64,000 nucleotides of DNA from a virus (taxonomy: Duplodnaviria; Heunggongvirae; Uroviricota; Caudoviricetes). How positions within the stretch are numbered: the first letter of the stretch is position 1; each line of letters opens with the position of its first letter. Both the position numbers and the translations under genes were made by a program. Positions 1 through 62,927 of this stretch are shown piece by piece. The notes under the pieces were generated by a model. That model searched no databases, was not told the DNA's origin, and saw only the letters and a list, made by a program, of their open reading frames with translations. The DNA is taken from positions 49,317 to 113,316 of IMG/VR virus record IMGVR_UViG_3300038968_000013. One strand, written 5' to 3'.

Positions 1-3000
1 GACGTTCGACGGCGTATCGATCTTCGCAAGCGAGAGCTTCAGAAGCTCGATCGAGGTGGCTGCGTTTGCTCCACCCTCGGCGAGAGACCCGAGCATCGCG
101 GCAATGGTTGCAAAGTCACGCTGCGACTGGTTGCCACCCTTGTCACCAATGATAGAGGTCTTGAAGACAAACCCTAGCGCCTCAAACTGCTTGATCTGCT
201 TGTCGGAAAGCCCGATGCTTTGACCCTGCAGCTTGATGAATTCACGAAGTCCTTCAGTGAACGTTCCTTGCCCACTGCTCTCGAAGTCCTTCGCGAAGTC
301 CTGTCCGAGGCTGCGATCGAAGTTACCCTTGATCCACTCCCCGTCCTGCCATACGGGGACGTTCCCCCAGAATGGCGCGAACCGACGCGACTCGTGCTTG
401 CGGCCCTTATCTTCAAGGAAGCCTTCAAATAGGTTACGGGTGACCGTTCCGCCTGTCTTCGGCTTTGTGAACATCGAGAAGAAGTACAGCGGGAGGATCA
501 TACCGGCGAGCGGGTTGCCGGGGTTCAGCGTCAGGAAGAGGTTTGCCCAGTCCATTGCACCAGCTCCACCGAACTGAGTGCGCTGGAACGAACCAAGAAG
601 GTTGCTCGCGTTGCTTCCACCACCGGGGCTTGTGCCACCGCCCCAGAATCCACCGCCCATAAATGACGACAGCGACCCAAGGCCCGCAGTGAAATTCGCA
701 ACGGCCATGGTGAACTTATCAAAACCACCCATGAAGAGCTTGCGCGTTCCTTCGTTACCGAAGACATTACCACGCCCCTCTTCAAGGGAGTTTAGCCCCA
801 TAAAGGCTTCGACCGCAGCAACGATCGCGGTAAGGATGCCGAAGCTTGCCCATGTGGTGTAGCTCGTTAGCGCATTCGCAATTCCACCAATGACACCAAC
901 CTGGGTTGCACCTTGTGTTCCCATTGCAACAGCTTCAGCCCCACTTGTTGCGCCAACGGGAACCGTCGAAGCCCCAAGCACCGCATCGCTGTACCCAACA
1001 AATCCGGGAGCGATATTCGCGAGACCTTCACCAACGGCACCGGCAATCTGAGACGAGGCACCACCGATCGCGACGTTAAACGCCTCGGTAATTGTGGCTC
1101 CACCGCGCCAAGCGTTGAAGCCGTTGTAGATGCCCTTGAGCACGGACACGACGGAGCCGGTATTCGATACGACCTGACCAAGGTTGCCGTTGACCGCGCC
1201 GAGACCAAACTGCGCAAGGCTGCCAGCTCCTTGAACCGCCTGGCCAGTCTGTCCAGTAAGGCCAAAGATACCGGCGATTGATCCGATGCCGTTTGCAACC
1301 TGACTCCAGCCGCCACCAGAACCATCGCCCCCGGTGCTCATTCCACCGAAGAGTCCGTTCCAGATACCACCAATGATATCAGCGCCACCCTTCACCATCG
1401 CGGGAAGATCGTTGAGGAAGTTCGCGCGGAACTTACCATCGAAGCCAAGCTTGTCCTTCAGCATCCCCTTCAGCATGTCGCCGAAGATTGCCTGTCCAGA
1501 CCGCTTGAAGATCTCCATCGCATCGAGACCCTTGTTGGTGCCCTGAAGGATACCGTCTACAAGGCCGTCGATGATGTTGTTGATCGACTCACCAAGATCA
1601 ATCGTGGTGTCCTCGATCTTCTTGCGCAGCTTTTCGATCGCCTGCTCTTGACGTGCAAGTAGCTCGACGTTTTCACCAGTCTGCCCATTTGATTCAGCCT
1701 GTGCCTTTGCCAGCTGAATCTCTGCTTCCTCCATCGAAAGCTTTCCGGCATGAACAAGTGTAAGAAGATCCAGCTCCTTCGCACGTAGCTCGATCGACTT
1801 ATTGACGCTTGCGTTTTCCTGCTGGGCGCTGCTGAGAATAGACTCCTGGTTCTCAAGGGTCGCCTTAGTGACCGCATCGCGAAGCAGCTGTTCCTTCTGT
1901 AGTGCAGGAATAGTCTTTGCGCGCTCTGCGAGTACCTTGGCTTCGGCAAGAGCTTCCGCCTTCTTAATGTCGACTGCCTTTACCGTCGACTGGTTGAGGG
2001 TCTGTAGCGCAACGATACGCGCCTGGATCATCTGGATATCGCGTGGTGTATCGTACAGAAGATCCTGAACCTTCTTCAGGTCAGCTTCAGCCCGCTGGAT
2101 CTCGATCAGCGCAACCTTCTCCTTCGCTAGCTGTGCCGCTAGCTCTGCGGACTTTGCGGACACACCCTTCTTGCCAGCGGCAACCAGAGCATCCGTCTCG
2201 GCCACAAGGCGAGCCTGCGCGATTCCTTCCTCGCGGATCTTGATCTCTAGCCGTGTGGCTTCGATCTCTTCCTTGAGGGAGTCGAGTGCATCGTTGGTCT
2301 TGGGCTTGTCCTTCGGAGGGTCGGTGCGCTTACCTTCTGGCGCAGGGGGTCCGTACGCGCCGATGGCGATACCAGGGATGGAGTTGGCAGCTGCGAGCGC
2401 CATGTTGTCGAGCGCCACACCAGCAGCAACAGCCTTGTTGTAAACGTCAAGAAGGTAGGTCTGGAGATTCTGGAAGTAGGTTTGCAGCGCCTGCTGCTTC
2501 TCTGGGTCCATCTCAAGGCTAAGCCCATCGAACACACCCAGCTCTTCGGCGGTCTTTTGGAGAGCGTCTACGCTGTTCTTAAACTCGGTGTTAAGGTTGA
2601 TCGAGTTGTTGACAAGATCCTTGATTCCCTGCGCAGCGTTCAGCGCATCCTGGCGTACCGCCTTCAGCGCCTCCTGCATCTCCTTCGAGGTTTGCGCAAA
2701 CTCGTTACTGCCATCTCCAACGTCCGTTAGCTTCTCGACGAGCCCATCAAACACGCCCGTGAGAGAGAGCGCGGCGGTGATCGCAATTGCGGCAAGCGCA
2801 GCAAGACGTCCCCACGGCAGCGCAAGAAAGGCTGCCCCGGTTTCGAGGATCGCGATACGGAGATTAGTGAAAGCAACGGTGAGAAGGATGATAAGTGTCT
2901 GCGCCCCCGCATACAGAATAGCGGTTTGTGCAATGGCGCTAGCGAGACCACCCATTGCCTTGATGACGTTATACATCATCTCAGCAAACTTACTCAGGGC

Positions 3001-7915: not shown

Positions 7916-8395
7916 CTAGCTCTTAACGTATGCTTCGCGGGGATTACCCAGCACGGTCGAGAATCGGGCTACGAATTGCACGTAGGCTCCGGGCTGAAAC
8001 TCATCGACCTCTGAAACCGCGACCATCGTTTGGTAGGGGACCAGATCTACTGATGCCCCACCAATGCTCCAAGGTGTGCCGGAAAGAAGAACTTGCTTCA
8101 CATCGGCTGCCATCTCGGCACCAACTTCTGCAGCAGAATAGCATGTTTGGCCACTGATTACAAGGTGTATGTCAAGTTCGGATTGGACCCCATCTACCCA
8201 AGTATTGAGGTTTTCTTCCTCGACGCCGCCCCAAATAAAGATACAGGGCTGAGCCGTCTGGGAATCGAGGGTAGCCTCATTAGGCATCAGCTCGTAGACT
8301 TCCCGGCAGTTAAACGAGTGACCGTTGGCCACCGAGATATTTCGGAGCGCAGCGGCTAGATCCTTGACGATTTGTGTACGAATTGACAGTGCCAT
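7916..8395 (-). CDS. tail terminator / tail completion protein, putative
   Basis: 159-aa ORF between the neck genes and the tail genes. Called by synteny only. Confidence 0.35.
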   Translation of the reverse strand: MALSIRTQIVKDLAAALRNISVANGHSFNCREVYELMPNEATLDSQTAQPCIFIWGGVEEENLNTWVDGVQSELDIHLVISGQTCYSAAEVGAEMAADVKQVLLSGTPWSIGGASVDLVPYQTMVAVSEVDEFQPGAYVQFVARFSTVLGNPREAYVKS

Positions 8396-40599: not shown

Positions 40600-40798
40600 G
40601 CGTATTGGTACAGAAATAACGTACTACACGATGTGCGATCGATGCTACGCGGTATTCGCGTTGTCCTTGCTGTAGCACTCGTAGCAGCGCACCGGGTACC
40701 CACACCAACGGTGTGTCAGTGTTCCACACCGACAGCATCGTTTACGGCGGTACCCATAGCGACAGTCTTCGCAGGTTGCTGGATTGTGTTTCATAGAG

Positions 40799-40872
40799 CG
40801 GAACCGAGGGGGATCGAACCCCTAACCTTTCCCGTGACAGGGGAGCGTTCTAGCCAATTGAACTACGGCTCC
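40799..40872 (-). tRNA. tRNA-Asp (GTC)
   Basis: Manual fold. Acceptor GGAGCCG/CGGTTCC, D-arm GTTC..GAAC, anticodon loop CTGTCAC and T-arm AGGGG TTCGATC CCCCT. Confidence 0.6.
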
Positions 40873-40877
40873 GTGAG

Positions 40878-40951
40878 AGTCGATACCCGGATTCGAACCG
40901 GGACCGCTAGTTTGGAAGACTAGCATGCTAACCGTTGAACACTACATCGAC
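40878..40951 (-). tRNA. tRNA-Gly (TCC), probable
   Basis: Manual fold. Acceptor GTCGATG/TATCGAC, anticodon stem CTAGT/ACTAG with loop CTTCCAA, and T-arm CCCGG TTCGAAT CCGGG. The D-stem is weak, and the 5' end overlaps the ORF 40928..41182. Confidence 0.45.
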
Positions 40952-57663: not shown

Positions 57664-58772
57664 TCGTGCCGTACGCCTTCGTGAGCCTCGCGCTCGACGT
57701 CCGCAAACTCTTTGAGGAAGTCGTTGACGTGACCGGTAAGCTGTTGCAGCAGCTCCCGCGAACGCTCTGGGCTGATTGCCGCGTGCTTGAGGCGCTGTGC
57801 CGCGATTTCGAGTGCCGCTCCTGCCACCGCCACGTTGTGATCCGTGATCACTTCCACGGAACGGTTGAGCGCAGGATCGACCGCCTGGTAGCGTTCCAGC
57901 TGAGCGCGCGCACGCACTGCCGTCATGGAGTTTTCGAGCACGACGGCCAGGTTCTGCCACTTCTCCAGCAGGTTCCGACGCATGCCGTGAACCGACTCGA
58001 TGGAGAGCGCAGCTGCATCCTTCGACTTCTGCAGCGTGGGGATGGCGCGCTGAGCCTCGGTGACGATGGTAATGAATTCCATCACGTCGAGACGCACCTT
58101 CTCCAGGTCACGCTTCAGAGCTTCGAATTCGGCTTCCTTCGCGGGCCGATCCTTCTGCTCGATGGTTCCGGACTTCAGCTCCAGGTCGAGCGCATTGTAG
58201 CGCCCTTCCAGCTCTGCTCTGCGCTGTTCCGCTTGGAGTTGACGCGGGGTCGCTTCCTTGAGCTTGGACAATACGGTATCGATGCTCTTCCCGTACGACT
58301 CGACGTTGGACACGTACTCCGCTTCTACCGTCCCCAACTTCTCGATCGTCTCCTGCACGAAGGTCTCGACTTCGCGACACGCCTCTTCGACCGAGGCAGT
58401 GTCGAGCCGCGAAACACGGAGCGCCTGAGCCTTGTTCATCGCCTTGTCGGAGAACTGCCCGAGGAACGCCAGGGTCTTTTCCTTGACGCCCCGGAATTCG
58501 CCCGACCGCGCGATTTGCAGCCCGATGGCCTCGATGCGCTGAATCACGTCAGAGCACAACGCCCGAAGCTCCTGCTCCATGGCGGCGCCCTTCTCGTGTG
58601 CGTCGGCCAACTTCTGGCTACCGTGCGTGACGCGTTGCTTGCCCTGCTTGACCTCGGTGGCTTGCCGTTCCTGCTTGATGTCCAGGTCCGAAATCACCGT
58701 GTCGTTCTGCAGCGATTCGCGGATAGCTGCCCGCCCGGTACGCTGCGCCGTTTGTTCCCTCACTTGCGCCAC
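57660..58772 (-). CDS. all-helical coiled-coil protein (TelA/YaaN-like?)
   Basis: 370 aa. GTG start with a GGAGGTGG RBS. Long heptad-like Glu/Arg/Leu-rich segments. The family assignment is tentative. Confidence 0.45.
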   Translation of the reverse strand: MAQVREQTAQRTGRAAIRESLQNDTVISDLDIKQERQATEVKQGKQRVTHGSQKLADAHEKGAAMEQELRALCSDVIQRIEAIGLQIARSGEFRGVKEKTLAFLGQFSDKAMNKAQALRVSRLDTASVEEACREVETFVQETIEKLGTVEAEYVSNVESYGKSIDTVLSKLKEATPRQLQAEQRRAELEGRYNALDLELKSGTIEQKDRPAKEAEFEALKRDLEKVRLDVMEFITIVTEAQRAIPTLQKSKDAAALSIESVHGMRRNLLEKWQNLAVVLENSMTAVRARAQLERYQAVDPALNRSVEVITDHNVAVAGAALEIAAQRLKHAAISPERSRELLQQLTGHVNDFLKEFADVEREAHEGVRHE

Positions 58773-58799
58773 TGTGCCACCTCCGTTTGATAGTATGCG

Positions 58800-58925
58800 A
58801 ACATGTTGTTTGTGACCATCTTTTTACCGGTGCTCTAACACTGAGCTACTTCCACATGTGGAAGGCTGGACTTTAACCAGCGACCCCCGGTCCTTCATGA
58901 GAACAGTCAACAGTCGGCTCGCAAG
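58800..58925 (-). ncRNA. Y RNA-like permuted tRNA mimic, E1
   Basis: Reading 5' to 3' on the minus strand, in order: leader GCGAGCCGAC, anticodon-stem 3' strand ACCGG, variable loop GGGTC, T-arm GCTGG TTAAAGT CCAGC, acceptor 3' strand CTTCCAC-A, a 1-nt link, acceptor 5' strand GTGGAAG, TA, D-arm GCTC AGTGTTA GAGC, A, and anticodon-stem 5' strand CCGGT. The 7-bp acceptor and 5-bp anticodon stems are perfectly complementary between the two halves. Confidence 0.5.
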
Positions 58926-59109
58926 CCGTTAACATTGGTCCCGATGCCGTGGACACAACCCCCGGCTCTCCCGCACCAACGCGGTTGTTCTGTGTACATG
59001 TCGGGCTACACCGAATCGTGCTGCCCCGGCCGGGTCAACAGCAGAGATTCATCTGGCAGACATTTAACCAACACGGTCTAGTTTCTGAACTACATCGGGA
59101 AAAGAAAAA

Positions 59110-59246
59110 GCGAGCATGTAGCTTCTTTGAGGAGTGTATTTTTGACGGTTGCTCTACCAACTGAGCTACATTCTTGGTTGCCCTTGAATGGCTGGATTCG
59201 AACCAGCGACCCACTGTGTGTGATAACCCTCAAACGTTCGGCTCGC
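59110..59246 (-). ncRNA. Y RNA-like permuted tRNA mimic, E2
   Basis: Same order as E1. T-arm GCTGG TTCGAAT CCAGC, acceptor halves CATTCAA / AAGAATG (5 of 7 bp) joined by a GGGCAACC loop, and D-arm GCTC AGTTGGTA GAGC. Leader GCGAGC pairs with trailer GCTCGC. Confidence 0.5.
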
Positions 59247-59328
59247 GAAAAATGACCCCGAAGTCATGCTAATTATGCATGAATACTCAGCCTCGATGAG
59301 CATCGGGGAGAGAAGCTGTTTCAAAAAG

Positions 59329-59411
59329 TACCGGTGACAGGATTCGAACCTGCAAGAGTTTCCCCTACTAGTTCCTAAGACTAGCGTGTACGCCAATGCC
59401 ACCTCACCGGC
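59329..59411 (-). tRNA. tRNA-Leu (TAG), class II
   Basis: Manual fold. Acceptor GCCGGTG/CACCGGT, anticodon arm CTAGT CTTAGGA ACTAG, a 13-nt variable arm and T-arm GCAGG TTCGAAT CCTGT. Collinear with E. coli tRNA-Leu. Confidence 0.6.
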
Positions 59412-59421
59412 AAAAAGAAAG

Positions 59422-59531
59422 TGGGTAGGGGTGGAGTTGAACCACCAAGTAAGCTCTCAAGTAGGCATACTCAACTAGTATTTTCAGCCCACCATCCAGC
59501 TATTCTCTGTACAACAAATGTACACCTACCC
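59422..59531 (-). ncRNA. 110-nt tRNA-like RNA (perfect 7-bp acceptor + T-arm, ~35-nt extra internal sequence)
   Basis: 5' GGGTAGG ... GGTGG TTCAACT CCACC CCTACCC A 3'. The D-arm is a 4-6 bp palindrome (G)TGTACA..TGTACA. No canonical anticodon arm could be placed by hand. Confidence 0.35.
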
Positions 59532-59595
59532 ATAGTCTCGGACAACGGATTGCGGTCTCACTGTACCGCGCTTAATCCCCGAGCTTAAAACGGTT

Positions 59596-59650
59596 GGGGC
59601 CAGGCTGGATTCGAACCAGCAGAGAGGGATGGCAAATCCCCCACGAACTG
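59596..59650 (-). ncRNA. tRNA-like 3' module (anticodon-like hairpin GGGGA TTTGCCA TCCCT + T-arm GCTGG TTCGAAT CCAGC + CTGGCCC)
   Basis: No matching 5' acceptor strand either upstream or downstream. It shares a GCTGGCAAAA submotif with E4. Confidence 0.3.
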
Positions 59651-60100
59651 AGCGGATCAAAGCGTGCAAGCTTTTGCCAGCTCAGCGACACTACCCGGTC
59701 TAGACTTCCTCAGCCCGCCGCCATTGCCAACCATGCGACTTACTGACCCCAGAAAACTAACCACGAACATAAAAGTGAAGAGCGAGCTGTCAGCTGGGTA
59801 CCCTTGATCTACTCGTACCGCCCCATTGATGCGAAGGCTTATCAGCTTCGTAGAGGGTATCACCCCAGGTGACTTGTCATCCATCTTACACCCCGGATGC
59901 ATAGGTGTGCTGCCTTCATCGGTGGACCTGACCTTTTCACTACTCAGTTAAACGTTGTTTCGAGGGCGCCTTGTCCGGTCTCCCCCTGGCTTTTTTATCA
60001 AAGTAGAGAACACTCTTCGATTGGCTCGTGGTTCTTGTCCCAGCAATCCTACCCCTCAGTGTGCTAATGAGTCTCAGATCTCAGCCGGGACCAAAACTAT

Positions 60101-60235
60101 ATACCCTGAACGTATGGGCGTCGATGCGGTTTAACGCTCTGCCATTGAGCTAACTCTGCAGGTTAGTGCAGAGCCTGGGACTCGAACCCAGATCTTTCGA
60201 TTATCATTCGAGAACACACCAACAGTCGGCTCAGG
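60101..60235 (-). ncRNA. Y RNA-like permuted tRNA mimic, E3
   Basis: Leader GTTTCACCCTGAGCCGACTGTTG..., T-arm CTGGG TTCGAGT CCCAG, acceptor 3' strand GCTCTGC-A, loop CTAACCT, acceptor 5' strand GCAGAGT, TA, D-arm GCTC AATGGCA GAGC. Head ACCCTGA pairs with tail TCAGGGT. Confidence 0.45.
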
Positions 60236-60284
60236 GTGAAACTTAGATTGTCAAAGAACAAGGTGGAGAACGAGTTACAGAAAG

Positions 60285-60365
60285 CAGGGATTAGTGGGAT
60301 TTGAACCCACATCAGCCGGTTTTTGCCAGCTTCGTCATCCAGTAGCGATAACCCTGCCTAGTTCG
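60285..60365 (-). ncRNA. tRNA-like module E4 (shared leader + T-arm GTGGG TTCAAAT CCCAC)
   Basis: Leader GAGAGCCGAAC matches those of E1-E3. The tRNA-like features are incomplete. Confidence 0.3.
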
Positions 60366-60380
60366 GCTCTCCGGATCTTT

Positions 60381-61043
60381 TTACAGCGCCACTTCGCGTG
60401 GCGTGTGAACTGACGGCATCGTAGCACCGATGGATGGCTTTGTCAAATCCTGATGCTTTGCCATCCAATCCTGCACGAACCAGAGCTGTCCACAGCCGCC
60501 GCCGATGTCGTCCTGTCCCGCAGGATCGAAGCAGCGCACCGAGTACCCGATCGTCTTCATCATGTCCATGAAGTTGGTCGCGAGGGTCCGCTGACGATGA
60601 TTCGCCGCAGCCACGCTCTCGTCCCGCTCACAGATGACGCTGATCGTTGCTTCCCACGTATCCGGGTGAAACAAGCGGCGCAGGTTGTTGACGTCCTGCC
60701 ACGATACGTTACCCGGATGCGCGCAGTAGTTGAAGAACGGGCGGCGCCCGGTGACGTTGTAGAAGCGATTGCCTTGGTACGCGATCTGCGCGAGGTTCAG
60801 CTTTGCCTTGAACGGAATGAGCTGATCGCGCTTCTCGTCGGTGCTCTCATGAACCGAGAATTGCAGCCCGATGGTAGGAATCTTCCGCGCCGCTTCCATG
60901 ATCGGGTCGTAATCGACGTCCGGAGCACTCGTGGAAATGAGCAGCGAGAAGTTCGGGTAGAGGAAGTACAGGTACTCCATCGCCCTGATCAGTTCCTTTT
61001 GGTTGAGCATTTGTTTACACCAATTGTAAGTAAGATAACCCAC
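60381..61043 (-). CDS. hypothetical protein downstream of rsr
   Basis: 220-aa ORF. No motif recognised. Confidence 0.4.
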   Translation of the reverse strand: MGYLTYNWCKQMLNQKELIRAMEYLYFLYPNFSLLISTSAPDVDYDPIMEAARKIPTIGLQFSVHESTDEKRDQLIPFKAKLNLAQIAYQGNRFYNVTGRRPFFNYCAHPGNVSWQDVNNLRRLFHPDTWEATISVICERDESVAAANHRQRTLATNFMDMMKTIGYSVRCFDPAGQDDIGGGCGQLWFVQDWMAKHQDLTKPSIGATMPSVHTPREVAL

Positions 61044-61160
61044 TACCCGGTCGGCTCACCGTATGCCGTTATGTCTGAGACGCGAACATGTAGACGCCTA
61101 GGGCTGTTTTCATTTAGGCAATGGTAACCCTAGAGCTATCGGCTCGCGCGTATCTTGTCG

Positions 61161-62777
61161 TTACAGACCCTTCGCGAACTCCGAGATTAGCTGCGGGGTG
61201 GCAGTGTCGAAGCCCACCACGTCGAGCTGACCCGGATCGTTTGGATCTGCGATGGTGAAGTTGGTCGCAGTCATGCCGACCGTTACCATCTTGCAGTCCT
61301 TCTTGTTCATGCGCGTACGGAACTGGCGCAGAGCAGTGCTCGCGTGCGTGTTCCCGGCCCAAACCTCGTTGTCCGTGATGATCACGAAGCAATCGACGTC
61401 GAGGCTATGCTGCATCGCGTACTTCATTGCGACCGCACCGTCCGTACCACCGAAGTTGGCGTCCTGAGCAGCGCGCGCAGCATCACGGAGCGACATGCCC
61501 GGATGGATACGAAGATCCTTGAAGTGATGCGCGAATCCACCGATGAAATAGTTGCTCTCGGTGTTTGCGATCACGAGCGCCATTGCTGCTGCGCCGATGC
61601 ACGGAGTCAGACCCGGCACGCCCGCGATGCTGCCGCCCGCCATCGAGCCCGAGACGTCGACTCCCAGGAAGAAGTTCTTCCCGGTCGGCTCGACCGCCTT
61701 GAACGCGAGGTAGAACGCCTCGTCGAGGGCCTTGACCACCTTCTGCGAAGGTGTCCAGGTCTTGGACATGTCGCGGGCACCACGCCCCGCCGCGTACGTC
61801 AGGTTCGCAGCCAGGATCTGAATCGGATGCACACGGCCCTTGATGATCGCGTCCTGGTTGCCCAGAAGCTTCACGATGTCCTTCTCGGCCTGCGACAGCG
61901 GCTTCAGCAGTCCGACACGCGTCATGGTCGCCAGGTTGCGGATGACCATGGTGATCCCGCCCGTCGACAGCAGCGCCTCCCAAACCTCTGGAGCGTTCAG
62001 CAGCTGCGTCGGGATGATCTCGCGCGGCAGGTTGAAATCGGTGATCAGCTGCACCGCAGTCTTCACGTCGGCCTTGGTAGCCCCCGTGATTGCCTGCATG
62101 ACACGCGCACCCTCGATCATGTCCGGACCCTTGGTGAAGTCTTCCTTCTTCAGGGCGAACTCGAAGACAGCACGGCGCATAGCATCGTCGGTCTTCGGAT
62201 GCGTCAGACGCAGGAGGTCACGATGCGACCAACCGTCACGCTGCTGGTACTTCACGACCTGCAGTGCCAGCTTGTCGACCGGCTTGGCAAGGTACCAATC
62301 ACGCACCGCGTTCTTCAGCGCACGACCCCAGCCACGATACTGGCGGGCGAAGGCGATGAAATGGAACAGATGCGTTCCAGTACGCGCGACCTTGTGCAGA
62401 TTGGCGAGCGCGTAACGCTTCACGTCGTCGCTACCCTCGGAGGCAGCGTATGCCAGTGCCAGCAGCGCCGGATCGTTCTTCGGCGCGCGACCGTCCTGCG
62501 AAATCTGGACGATCTCGTTGACGAGACGCATGCCATCCTCCAGGAGGCACGCCTTGACGGCGTTCAGGCTCTCCTTGGTGTGCTGGCGCTGGTCAGCGTA
62601 GTACGTCCCACCCTCGGTGCCGAGGATCAGGAAGCGACGCAGATGCATCCAATGCCCGGTGGCAAAAACGTAACCACCCGCATGGTTCTTCACCTGGCGC
62701 GCGTCCAGCGGCTCCGACTCCGGAACCGGCTTCGAAATCTCGTTCAGTAGATAGCTTCCCTTGCGTCCCATCGTCAT
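61161..62777 (-). CDS. rsr: Ro60/Rsr ortholog (TROVE domain + C-terminal vWA/MIDAS domain)
   Basis: GGYVFATGHWMHLRRFLILGTEGGTYYADQRQ...ISQDGRAPKNDPALLALAYAAS aligns with the N-terminus of the Ro sixty-related protein (..RFLILGSEGGTYY..RAPKND). GVDVSGSM is a MIDAS motif. Confidence 0.85.
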   Translation of the reverse strand: MTMGRKGSYLLNEISKPVPESEPLDARQVKNHAGGYVFATGHWMHLRRFLILGTEGGTYYADQRQHTKESLNAVKACLLEDGMRLVNEIVQISQDGRAPKNDPALLALAYAASEGSDDVKRYALANLHKVARTGTHLFHFIAFARQYRGWGRALKNAVRDWYLAKPVDKLALQVVKYQQRDGWSHRDLLRLTHPKTDDAMRRAVFEFALKKEDFTKGPDMIEGARVMQAITGATKADVKTAVQLITDFNLPREIIPTQLLNAPEVWEALLSTGGITMVIRNLATMTRVGLLKPLSQAEKDIVKLLGNQDAIIKGRVHPIQILAANLTYAAGRGARDMSKTWTPSQKVVKALDEAFYLAFKAVEPTGKNFFLGVDVSGSMAGGSIAGVPGLTPCIGAAAMALVIANTESNYFIGGFAHHFKDLRIHPGMSLRDAARAAQDANFGGTDGAVAMKYAMQHSLDVDCFVIITDNEVWAGNTHASTALRQFRTRMNKKDCKMVTVGMTATNFTIADPNDPGQLDVVGFDTATPQLISEFAKGL

Positions 62778-62927
62778 CCCCTCACATTCGGTTATCGGCT
62801 CACACGGTAGGTTTTAAGACACCACTTACCCGGCCCAGCCACGCTTGCGCTTTCGATTCGGCCCGTGTGCTCAGGAAACAGAGCTTATGCTATCCTGATG
62901 GTTGTGTCAAGCGGTCGCGCAGATTTT

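What the first reader, a model, noticed from the sequence alone, without database searches (positions are those of the whole stretch)
58905..60362. Shared leader motif GAGCCGA(A)C at the 5' edge of four tRNA-like modules
Minus-strand leaders are GCGAGCCGACTGTTG (E1), GCGAGCCGAACGTTTG (E2), CTGAGCCGACTGTTGG (E3) and GAGAGCCGAACTAGGC (E4). A conserved strand at the base of each module is what a common protein-binding helix would show, for example the Rsr-binding stem of Y RNAs. It could also be a common promoter-proximal or processing signal.
Basis: partly seen in the sequence, partly recalled or inferred. Interest (0 to 1): 0.6.

Follow-up and report, generated by a model that had tools for sequence, protein, structure and literature searches.

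The report
Ro60-binding motif of phage Y RNAs
The shared GAGCCGA leader is the docking site for the phage's own Ro60 (Rsr) protein at the base of a row of small Y RNAs, several of which mimic tRNA; this kind of RNA-protein pair is already described, so the finding is correct but ordinary.

Summary
All four quoted leaders are in the window, on the minus strand. The bare 7-mer is not enriched over the whole window. But 8 of its 11 copies lie on one strand within 4 kb. The longer pattern GAGCCGA-N8-12-GTTMTC occurs 5 times against 0.03 expected.

The motif sits just downstream of a phage Ro60/Rsr gene (61161-62777, minus). It forms the 5' strand of a basal helix (GAGC pairs with GYUC) followed by a CGA(A) internal loop. 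The base pairs outside the core covary across this phage, three relatives and about 45 other phage Rsr loci. Modules E1-E3 have the permuted tRNA-like core of YrlA Y RNAs. E4 has only a T-arm.

I found three more modules (E0, truncated E0b, E5) and further motif copies in the rsr leader.

The motif matches the published YrlA signature GNCGAAN0-1G. It also contains the CGAA motif shown by mutagenesis to matter for Ro60 binding in Thermus phage phiLo.

Verdict: new members of a known kind, modest interest. Binding, transcription and processing are inferred, not shown. One possibly new lead: some related phages carry a permuted copy of the site next to the rsr ribosome-binding site.

The parts
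62882..62910 (-). Promoter-like site upstream of rsr (TTGACA-17 nt-TAAGCT)
   Evidence: Read from the sequence. The same arrangement is seen in relatives L206 (TTGACA-17-TAAGCC) and L005 (TTGACA-17-TAAGTA). The consensus scan did not call it, so it is inferred.
62858..62864 (-). Motif variant GGGCCGA(A) near the predicted 5' end of the rsr mRNA
   Evidence: It matches the family-wide GRGCCGR consensus. Its function is untested.
62795..62801 (-). Unpaired GAGCCGA copy 18-24 nt upstream of the rsr start codon
   Evidence: L206 is identical here, L004 has GAGCTGA, and L005 has GGGCCGAAAAGG at a similar distance. The leader has no stable fold (z +1.3).
61161..62777 (-). rsr, a Ro60 ortholog (TROVE + vWA_Ro60). 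Public gene calls start at 62771.
   Evidence: Pfam; PDB 2NVO 1e-129, 9NEN 9e-100, 1YVP 4e-98; homologs in 362 phage records.
61080..61149 (-). E0: 70-nt hairpin-type Y RNA module (YrlB-like). Motif at 61145-61139, 3' strand CAUGUUC with GUUC at 61087-61084.
   Evidence: Sequence; fold; non-seed hit of model R1, 32.8 bits, E 6e-6; homologs in L004, L005 and L206.
61011..61060 (-). E0b: 5' half of a Y RNA module (motif 61057-61051), cut off by a 624-bp deletion
   Evidence: The module is intact in L004 (1775-1877) and L206 (5742-5846). Deletion mapped. Weak R1 hit at 61001-61060, 21.4 bits.
60381..61010 (-). 5'-truncated remnant of an RlmN/Cfr-like radical SAM gene, lying inside the array (neighbour, not part of the motif)
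   Evidence: Homologs are about 310 aa with PF04055. The full gene is present in L206, and the window copy lacks the CxxxCxxC region.
60265..60372 (-). E4: module with a T-arm only. Motif at 60369-60363, 3' strand GUUCUCC (GUUC at 60271-60268). An alternative 3' strand, CUUGUUC, ends the module at 60252.
   Evidence: R1 hit 23 bits. Homologs in L005 (7853-7969) and L206 show covariation in the inner helix: GCAGGG/CCCUGC, CUUGGG/CCCAAG, GUAGG/CCUAC.
60103..60237 (-). E3: YrlA-type module (T-arm, closed acceptor-like hairpin, D-arm). Motif at 60232-60226, 3' strand ACGUUCAGGG (GUUC at 60111-60108).
   Evidence: Rfam YrlA 26.5 bits; fold; R1 99 bits, but it is a seed of that model.
59759..60033 (-). 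E5: 275-nt module with variant motif GAGCCAA (60027-60021), GUGUUCUC at the usual spacing, and 3' strand UAUGUUCGUGG (GUUC at 59768-59765). It has 6 outer base pairs and an interior of unknown type.
   Evidence: The same variant is conserved in L206. The L005 homolog (7977-8143) has the canonical GAGCCGA. No Rfam hit inside it.
59110..59246 (-). E2: YrlA-type module. Motif at 59244-59238 (GCCGAACG fits GNCGAAN0-1G exactly), 3' strand CAUGCUCGC (GCUC at 59115-59112).
   Evidence: Rfam YrlA 35.9 bits; fold; R1 88.7 bits, seed.
58796..58923 (-). E1: YrlA-type module. Motif at 58920-58914, 3' strand CAUGUUCGCA (GUUC at 58802-58799).
   Evidence: Rfam YrlA 40.4 bits, E 8e-7; fold; R1 89.8 bits, seed.

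Best explanation
GAGC-CGA(A) is the conserved 5' half of the Ro60/Rsr-binding module of a set of phage Y RNAs. The set lies immediately downstream of the phage's own rsr gene.

In each module, GAGC plus 2-6 preceding bases pairs with a 3' strand ...(C/A)AU-GYUC plus the complementary bases. This closes the RNA. CGA(A) opens an asymmetric internal loop. About 10 nt later, GUUAUC or GUUCUC starts the variable distal domain. That domain takes four forms:
- a permuted tRNA-like domain of T-arm, closed acceptor-like hairpin and D-arm (E1-E3);
- a T-arm only (E4);
- a plain hairpin (E0);
- a 275-nt domain of unknown type (E5).

Inferred, not shown here: Rsr binds the helix and CGA(A) loop of every module. 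The modules are made from the rsr transcript or a longer one, and their ends are defined and protected by bound Rsr. The differing distal domains tether Rsr to different partners, such as host PNPase or tRNA-handling enzymes, as in the known Ro60-Y RNA-PNPase complex.
For: - Ro60 ortholog directly upstream on the same strand.
- Sub-threshold Rfam YrlA hits on E1-E3 with the T / acceptor-like / D order. RNAalifold recovered the basal helix, T-arm, acceptor-like hairpin and D-arm on its own from 20 modules of 13 contigs.
- Leader statistics.
- The same leader and 3' strand flank unrelated interiors in relatives L004, L005 and L206.
- Model R1 found 103 hits in the roughly 77 searched phage Rsr loci that had been fetched by protein similarity alone. 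All 103 are on the rsr strand and none lies inside rsr.
- Consensus over 123 distinct hits is GRGCCGRA...GGUUAUC at the 5' end and C(U/A)UGYYC at the 3' end.
- The basal helix is 94% paired. All 8 pairs show compensatory changes, including the core A-U to G-C change.
- A check with no pairing requirement gave 11 of 40 candidates with at least 3 outer pairs on the rsr strand. A shifted-partner control gave 1 of 40 and the opposite strand 1 of 38.
- Literature: GNCGAAN0-1G motif and YUAY in YrlA; M. smegmatis YrlA and YrlB are processed from one precursor (PMC4201824). In Thermus phage phiLo, each nucleotide of CGAA contributes 3-4 fold to Ro60-Yrl2 affinity (PMC12135203).
Against: - No binding, expression or end-mapping data exist for this phage.
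- Rfam YrlA scores (40, 36 and 26 bits) are below the gathering score of 69. Known phage members score about the same: Catera 36, Cashline 42.
- The fourth base of CGAA varies here (A in E2 and E4, C in E1, E3 and E0b, U in E0). E5 has CAA in place of CGA, and that G was invariant in 118 aligned relatives.
- The module ends in alignment A2 were chosen by pairing, so alone is biased.
- Alignment A3 is fitted to the model, so its pair counts lean towards the structure.
- No promoters or terminators were found for individual modules, so the transcription and processing steps are inferred.
Confidence: 0.88

Rival explanations
1. The motif is an RNA processing signal: a nuclease site that cuts the modules out of a polycistronic precursor. 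On this view it is not, or not only, a protein-docking site for Rsr.
For: The modules are packed head to tail with no promoters or terminators of their own. E0 starts 13 nt after the rsr stop. The next gene's ribosome-binding site follows E1 within about 20 nt. M. smegmatis YrlA and YrlB are processed from one precursor (PMC4201824).
Against: The same CGAA-type motif has been shown to contribute to Ro60 binding in another phage (PMC12135203). The motif is found only next to rsr genes and only on their strand. The helix is short (6-9 bp) and interrupted, unlike RNase III substrates (my own knowledge). Processing and Rsr binding do not exclude each other.
Confidence: 0.07
2. The motif is a promoter-proximal or initially transcribed element, with each module having its own phage-specific promoter.
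For: The motif is always at the extreme 5' edge of a module. One sigma-70-like site (TTGACA-17-TACGAT, 60446-60418) lies about 45 nt upstream of E4.
Against: Promoter-like sites in the region number 3 against 2.0 expected. There is no -35/-10 pair upstream of E0, E3, E2 or E1. A DNA-level element would not need a covarying complementary strand 60-270 nt downstream. The E4 site lies in coding sequence, where TTGACA encodes part of a conserved peptide.
Confidence: 0.03
3. The shared leader is only a trace of recent tandem duplication of one tRNA-like gene, with no selected function.
For: E1, E2 and E3 are clearly paralogous. Tandem arrays are prone to duplication and deletion, as the 624-bp deletion in this window shows.
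Against: E0, E4 and E5 have interiors unrelated to E1-E3 yet keep the leader, its spacing to GUUMUC, and the 3' strand. The core is invariant and the flanking pairs covary in phages whose Rsr is only 40-50% identical.
Confidence: 0.02

Closest known systems
YrlA Y RNA-like RNAs (Rfam RF02553; Chen et al. 2014, PMC4201824), including those of mycobacteriophages
   Same: Encoded within 4 kb of a Ro60 ortholog on the same strand. They carry a 5' motif GNCGAAN0-1G (E2 GCCGAACG fits exactly), YUAY at the start of the variable region (UUAUC here), and a permuted tRNA-like domain of T-arm, closed acceptor-like hairpin and D-arm (E1-E3). Model R1, built from the phage modules, hits the YrlA region of Mycobacterium phage Catera at 75 bits and of Gordonia phage Cashline at 84 and 66 bits.
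   Different: The modules lie downstream of rsr, whereas 82 of 103 hits in other phage loci lie upstream. There are six to seven modules in this one locus. The 3' strand (C/A)AUGYUC is clearly conserved and paired, whereas the paper says only the 5' strand is recognisable in the Salmonella and M. smegmatis RNAs. E1, E3 and E0b have CGAC and UUCUC in place of CGAA and UUAUC. Scores are below the Rfam gathering score.
YrlB of S. Typhimurium and M. smegmatis (PMC4201824)
   Same: A second, shorter Rsr-bound RNA carrying the same 5' motif. The M. smegmatis YrlB has a possible T-arm only and is processed from the same precursor as YrlA. E0 (hairpin) and E4 (T-arm only) match these descriptions.
   Different: There is no sequence homology, and the assignment rests on architecture only.
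Yrl1 and Yrl2 of Thermus phage phiLo with phage Ro60 (PMC12135203; PDB 9L5Y, 9KOP)
   Same: Phage-encoded Ro60 with adjacent small RNAs that have a 5'-3' stem flanking an internal bulge carrying CGAA. Binding was shown by EMSA, and single substitutions in CGAA weakened it 3-4 fold. A complex with host PNPase was also shown.
   Different: The phiLo RNAs lie upstream of the gene, and there are two of them. The tool search found no mention of tRNA-like domains in that paper. The phiLo protein is only remotely similar to the window's Rsr (E 6e-6).
Metazoan Y RNAs (conserved bulged helix with GGUCCGA contacted by Ro60; Stein et al. 2005 as cited in PMC4201824)
   Same: The 5' and 3' ends pair to form the Ro-binding helix. 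The conserved 5' strand NNNCCGA runs into a bulge or loop. The distal part of the RNA varies and binds other proteins.
   Different: The sequence is GAGCCGA, not GGUCCGA. The interruption is an internal loop rather than a single bulged C. These are phage genes, probably processed from an operon transcript, not RNA polymerase III genes.
D. radiodurans Yrn1/Yrn2 and the Ro60-Y RNA-PNPase (RYPER) complex (Chen et al. 2013, as cited in PMC4201824)
   Same: It provides the working model: the Y RNA tethers Rsr to an effector and gates access to the Rsr ring.
   Different: Yrn1 has a different order of tRNA-like elements and arose independently, according to the paper. No PNPase contact can be inferred here.

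Membership tests
YrlA / bacterial-phage Y RNA (Chen et al. 2014; Rfam RF02553) | Encoded within about 4 kb of a Ro60/Rsr ortholog, on the same strand | tested here: met
   rsr is at 61161-62777 (minus). All modules lie at 58796-61149 (minus), 12 nt to 2.4 kb downstream.
YrlA / bacterial-phage Y RNA (Chen et al. 2014; Rfam RF02553) | 5' motif GNCGAAN0-1G | tested here: met
   E2 GCCGAACG fits exactly. E4 GCCGAACU lacks the final G. E1 and E3 GCCGACUG, E0b GCCGACCG and E0 GCCGAUAG each differ at one position (the second A). E5 GCCAAUCG lacks the CGA G. The consensus over 123 related phage hits is GRGCCGRA(N)G.
YrlA / bacterial-phage Y RNA (Chen et al. 2014; Rfam RF02553) | Permuted tRNA-like domain: T stem-loop, closed acceptor-like stem-loop, then D stem-loop | tested here: met
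   Met for E1, E2 and E3 (cmscan alignments; RNAalifold, with compensatory changes in all three elements). Not met for E4 (T-arm only), E0 or E5.
YrlA / bacterial-phage Y RNA (Chen et al. 2014; Rfam RF02553) | Score at or above the Rfam gathering threshold (69 bits) | tested here: not met
   Scores are 40.4, 35.9 and 26.5 bits. The threshold is also missed in Mycobacterium phage Catera (36.1), which has a Ro60 gene and belongs to the group of mycobacteriophages in which YrlA was reported, and in Gordonia phage Cashline (42.2). It therefore does not discriminate for phage members.
YrlA / bacterial-phage Y RNA (Chen et al. 2014; Rfam RF02553) | Conserved YUAY at the start of the variable (V) region | tested here: met
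   UUAUC in E0b, E4 and E2; UUACC in E0; UUCUC in E1, E3 and E5, always 9-11 nt after GAGCCGA. GGUUAUC is nearly invariant in 118 aligned relatives.
Y RNA in the general sense (Ro60-bound RNA) | 5' and 3' ends pair to form the helix that carries the Ro-binding sequence | tested here: met
   The basal helix was predicted independently by RNAalifold. It is 94% paired with compensatory changes at all 8 pairs in 123 sequences, and slid controls give 25-55% pairing. Unbiased control.
Y RNA in the general sense (Ro60-bound RNA) | Physical association with Ro60/Rsr | not testable with these tools
   This needs EMSA or immunoprecipitation. The closest experimental support is for the CGAA motif of phiLo Yrl2 (PMC12135203).
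Y RNA in the general sense (Ro60-bound RNA) | Expressed as a discrete, stable small RNA | not testable with these tools
   No transcript data are available. No intrinsic terminators or module-specific promoters were found.
   ARAGORN and Rfam call only tRNA-Leu (59329-59411) in this region. E3 and E4 reach only 22 bits on the tRNA model against a threshold of 29.

The most novel reading that the evidence does not exclude
The Rsr-binding motif also acts as a translational operator on the rsr mRNA, so that Rsr limits its own synthesis and the Y RNA array titrates it. This would resemble ribosomal proteins that bind a mimic of their rRNA site in their own mRNA.

In the window, a GAGCCGAU copy sits 18-24 nt before the rsr start, and a GGGCCGAA copy sits near the predicted 5' end of the mRNA.

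In 13 of 68 distinct phage rsr leaders that were fetched by protein similarity alone, GRGCCGAA lies 20-24 nt before the start codon. There it is paired, through a loop of 0-5 nt, with an upstream (C/A/U)UUGCUC-plus-flank strand. That recreates the whole Rsr-binding helix in circularly permuted form, right next to the ribosome-binding site. The flanking pairs covary among these leaders.
Probability: 0.2. Interest if true: 0.6.

Novelty: new member of a known kind. Interest (0 to 1): 0.3.

Why it matters
The locus adds an uncultivated tailed phage lineage to the phages known to carry Ro60 with Y RNAs. The lineage is seen in at least six public metagenome samples. It shows one Rsr gene serving a row of six to seven RNAs, and at least eight in relative L206. 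These RNAs share one docking module but carry very different distal domains.

That is a convenient natural test set for which part of a Y RNA binds Rsr and which part recruits partners.

The comparative data also show that the 3' strand and the helix are under selection. Earlier work left this open. The practical use is a sharper search pattern for phage Y RNAs than the current Rfam model, whose threshold misses even the model's best matches next to the Ro60 genes of Mycobacterium phage Catera and Gordonia phage Cashline.

Tried and rejected
- Megablast of the locus against GenBank phages found nothing. A single-protein scan of IMG/VR also found nothing. Relatives came from protein clusters and contig look-ups instead.
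- An exact-sequence look-up of the 538-aa ORF failed because public gene calls start two codons later.
- I first took ACAGCUCGC near 59790 as the 3' partner of E3. It is not. E3 closes at 60103, and the region beyond it belongs to E5.
- I considered E0b to be a complete 60-nt module whose 3' strand AUGCUC holds the start codon of the 209-aa ORF (weak R1 hit). Comparison with L206 shows the junction is a 624-bp deletion scar, so I treat that pairing as fortuitous.
- The rsr leader of the window has no stable fold (z +1.3), and the permuted hairpin seen in other phages is absent here.
- A pattern scan for the permuted operator in IMG/VR returned 72 loci, of which 62 are chance matches with no hairpin and no Rsr. 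Likewise, most of the 120 loci from the leader pattern scan are chance matches. Only 7 had an Rsr gene within the stored stretch.
- My first regex module caller was too permissive. I replaced it with a covariance model.
- Rfam at gathering thresholds reports no Y RNA at all in the window.
Full report
**Observation.** The minus strand of 58500-60800 contains the four leaders exactly as quoted: E1 58922-58908, E2 59246-59231, E3 60234-60219 and E4 60371-60356. The 7-mer GAGCCGA is not over-represented in the window as a whole (11 found, 13.6 expected). Eight of the 11 copies, however, lie on the minus strand between 58914 and 62801 (Poisson P about 1e-8). The extended leader GAGCCGA-N8-12-GTTMTC occurs 5 times against 0.03 expected, always in this locus and on this strand. 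Only three copies lie elsewhere in the 64 kb.

**Context.** The window is a tailed-phage genome with major head protein, portal and large terminase. The ORF at 61161-62777 (minus), directly upstream of the modules, is a Ro60/Rsr ortholog. It matches Pfam TROVE and vWA_Ro60, D. radiodurans Rsr 2NVO at 1e-129 and Xenopus Ro 1YVP at 4e-98. It has homologs in 362 GenBank phage records, all below 60% identity.

At gathering thresholds Rfam finds only tRNAs. With E-value reporting, the YrlA (Y RNA-like) model hits E1 (40.4 bits, E 8e-7), E2 (35.9) and E3 (26.5). The alignments show the YrlA order of T-arm, closed acceptor-like hairpin and D-arm. The same model scores the RNAs next to Ro60 in two cultured actinophages no better: 36 bits for Mycobacterium phage Catera and 42 for Gordonia phage Cashline. 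Falling below the gathering score of 69 is therefore not informative for phage members.

**Anatomy.** Each module folds with its two ends paired. From outside in, the parts are:
- 2-6 variable bases plus GAGC, paired with GYUC plus the complementary bases;
- an asymmetric internal loop whose 5' side starts CGA(A) and whose 3' side usually ends (C/A)AU;
- an inner helix;
- GUUAUC or GUUCUC, 9-11 nt after the motif, which opens the distal domain.

E0 (61149-61080) is a 70-nt hairpin starting 13 nt after the rsr stop. E0b starts at 61060. E5 (60033-59759) is 275 nt, has six outer pairs, and carries the variant GAGCCAA. E4 has a T-arm but no D-arm or closed acceptor-like hairpin.

**Relatives.** The same phage is present in three other public assemblies (L001-L003, 100% identical). 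Three relatives were recovered: L004 (Rsr 89% identical), L206 (locus DNA 94% identical across rsr) and L005 (Rsr 65%). All carry rows of modules that begin NN-GAGC-CGA and end CAU/CAC-GUUC-NN. The outer pairs differ from module to module: GC/GC, CCU/AGG, GGA/UCC, GGU/ACC, AU/AU, CAC/GUG, GUGU/ACAC.

L206 shows that the window carries a 624-bp deletion. It removed the 3' half of E0b, two further modules, and the N-terminal CxxxCxxC part of an RlmN/Cfr-like radical SAM gene. The 209-aa ORF at 61010-60381 is what remains of that gene.

**Wider test.** I fetched 80 IMG/VR loci by Rsr protein similarity alone. In these, GAGCCGA occurs 83 times on the rsr strand and 31 times on the other.

I aligned twenty YrlA-type modules from 13 contigs. 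GAGCCG and the 3' UG.UC were invariant. RNAalifold on its own predicted the basal helix, T-arm, acceptor-like hairpin and D-arm.

A covariance model (R1) built from that alignment was run over 625 kb, both strands. It found 126 hits. All 103 hits in the protein-fetched loci are on the rsr strand: 82 upstream of rsr, 21 downstream, none inside. In the window it also recovered three non-seed modules: E0 (32.8 bits), E4 (23.0) and E0b (21.4).

Over 123 distinct hits the leader consensus is G-R-G-C-C-G-R-A ... GGUUAUC, and the 3' consensus is C-(U/A)-U-G-Y-Y-C. The basal helix is 94% paired. Compensatory changes occur at all eight pairs, including an A-U to G-C change inside the core. Slid controls give 25-55% pairing.

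Two cautions apply. The module ends in the 20-sequence alignment were picked by pairing, so one search is biased. The 126-sequence alignment is fitted to the model. A check with no pairing requirement still gave 11 of 40 candidates with three or more outer pairs on the rsr strand. The shifted-partner control gave 1 of 40 and the opposite strand 1 of 38.

**Comparison with the literature.** Chen et al. 2014 (PMC4201824) describe in YrlA and YrlB a 5' motif, GNCGAAN0-1G. They liken it to the GGUCCGA that Xenopus Ro60 contacts. They also describe a conserved YUAY at the start of the variable region, the permuted tRNA-like domain, location within 4 kb of Ro60 on the same strand, presence in 22 phages, and processing of M. 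smegmatis YrlA and YrlB from one precursor.

The window's E2 (GCCGAACG) fits the motif exactly, and E1, E3, E4, E0 and E0b differ at one position. UUAUC matches YUAY, and three modules (E1, E3, E5) have UUCUC instead.

A 2025 study of Thermus phage phiLo found two Y RNA-like RNAs by their CGAA motifs. It showed binding to the phage Ro60. Each single substitution in CGAA weakened binding 3-4 fold. The RNAs and Ro60 also formed a complex with host PNPase (PMC12135203).

**Mechanism.**
- Shown here: the sequence pattern, its pairing and covariation, its exclusive association with rsr, and the YrlA-type fold of E1-E3.
- Inferred: Rsr binds each module at the helix plus CGA(A) loop.
- Inferred: the modules are co-transcribed with rsr. 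A conserved TTGACA-17-TAAGYN site lies about 100 nt upstream of rsr. No terminators or module promoters were found, and the next gene's ribosome-binding site follows E1 directly.
- Inferred: the modules are trimmed to the Rsr-protected helix.
- Inferred: the different distal domains recruit different partners.

The rivals are all less likely, and the processing signal is compatible with the main reading. The processing-signal, promoter and duplication-remnant ideas are set out, with evidence for and against, in the rival explanations section.

**What is somewhat new.**
- The number and variety of modules behind one rsr gene: six to seven here and at least eight in L206. Among loci with any hit the median was two.
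- Clear selection on the 3' strand and on helix formation, which the 2014 paper left open.
- E5, a large module of unknown interior that carries a G-to-A change at a position invariant elsewhere. The change is conserved in L206.
- Motif copies in the rsr leader.

On the last point, in 13 of 68 distinct rsr leaders from other phages, GRGCCGAA lies 20-24 nt before the start codon. It pairs through a very short loop with an upstream (C/A/U)UUGCUC-plus-flank strand. This recreates the Rsr site in permuted form beside the Shine-Dalgarno sequence, with covarying flanks. A pattern scan confirmed that the tight hairpins occur only in front of rsr, although most raw matches were chance. My literature search found no report of Rsr autoregulation. 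In the window itself the leader copy is unpaired and the leader has no stable fold, so for this locus the idea stays speculative.

**Verdict.** The element is a new member, in fact a set of members, of a known kind. Interest is modest.

Noticed in passing
L136, L141, L145, L154, L155, L165, L168, L170, L130, L133, L134, L197, L184: the 50 nt before the rsr start codon (about position 2950-3000 in most of these loci): The rsr leaders of several phage clades carry (C/A/U)UUGCUC+flank, a loop of 0-5 nt, then flank'+GRGCCGAA, ending 3-5 nt before the Shine-Dalgarno sequence. This is the Rsr-binding helix in circularly permuted form, with covarying flanks (CGUG/CACG, CAUG/CAUG, CGC/GCG, CAG/CUG). 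It may be a translational operator for Rsr autoregulation. My literature search found no report of this.
   Followed up: partly
window 60381-61010 (minus); L206 6001-7047: An RlmN/Cfr-like radical SAM gene sits inside the Y RNA array in this phage group. JGI annotates homologs as 23S rRNA A2503 methyltransferase. In the window it is cut down to its C-terminal 209 aa by a 624-bp deletion. The same deletion removed half of module E0b and two whole modules. All four independent assemblies of this phage share it.
   Followed up: yes
window 59593-59751 (minus): A tRNA-shaped RNA of about 157 nt. It has a 9-bp acceptor stem (GGGGUCAG/CUGGCCCC), a canonical T-arm (CUGGUUCGAAUCCAG), a D-like arm and a very long, branched 'anticodon' arm. 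No tRNA finder or Rfam model calls it. The shape is conserved, with covarying acceptor stems, in L206 (GGCGUCAG/CUGGCGCC) and in L005.
   Followed up: partly
window 59421-59534 (minus): A second tRNA-shaped RNA of about 112 nt. It has a GGGUAGG/CCUACCC acceptor stem, a T-arm, an atypical D hairpin and a roughly 60-nt insert. It is about 95% identical in L004 and also present in L206, and it lies just upstream of the genuine tRNA-Leu(UAG) at 59329-59411. It is not called as a tRNA.
   Followed up: partly
window 59759-60033 (minus), interior of E5, especially 59790-59900: A block of about 110 nt (…AUGCAUCCGGGGUGUAAGAUGGAUG…CUACGAAGCUGAUAAGCCUUCGCAUCAAUGGGGCGGUACGAGUAGAUCAAGGGUACCCAGCU) is highly conserved between the window and L206. 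It has no Rfam match. An 81-aa ORF overlaps it, but the ORF looks spurious. It may be a new structured domain carried on a Y RNA scaffold.
   Followed up: partly
window 58924-59109 (minus), between E2 and E1: A 186-nt spacer that folds stably (-59.8 kcal/mol). It is partly conserved in L206 and contains a motif-like GAGAGCCGGGGGUUGUGUCC. Its nature is unknown.
   Followed up: no
L206 8060-8350: In the relative L206, an ORF with an HNH-endonuclease-like signature (…CANCHQ…) lies between the tRNA and module E2, inside the RNA array. It is absent from the window.
   Followed up: no
window 40798-40951 (minus): Tandem tRNA-Asp(GUC) and tRNA-Gly(UCC) genes lie elsewhere in the phage genome. The junction between them gives a weak false hit of the Y RNA model (T-arm of one plus D-arm of the next).
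   Followed up: yes
Rfam RF02553 as applied to L209 (Mycobacterium phage Catera) and L210 (Gordonia phage Cashline): The Rfam YrlA gathering score (69 bits) excludes the YrlA-type RNAs next to Ro60 in cultured actinophages (36 and 42 bits). Routine annotation will therefore miss phage Y RNAs. A model built from phage modules scores them at 75-84 bits.
   Followed up: yes
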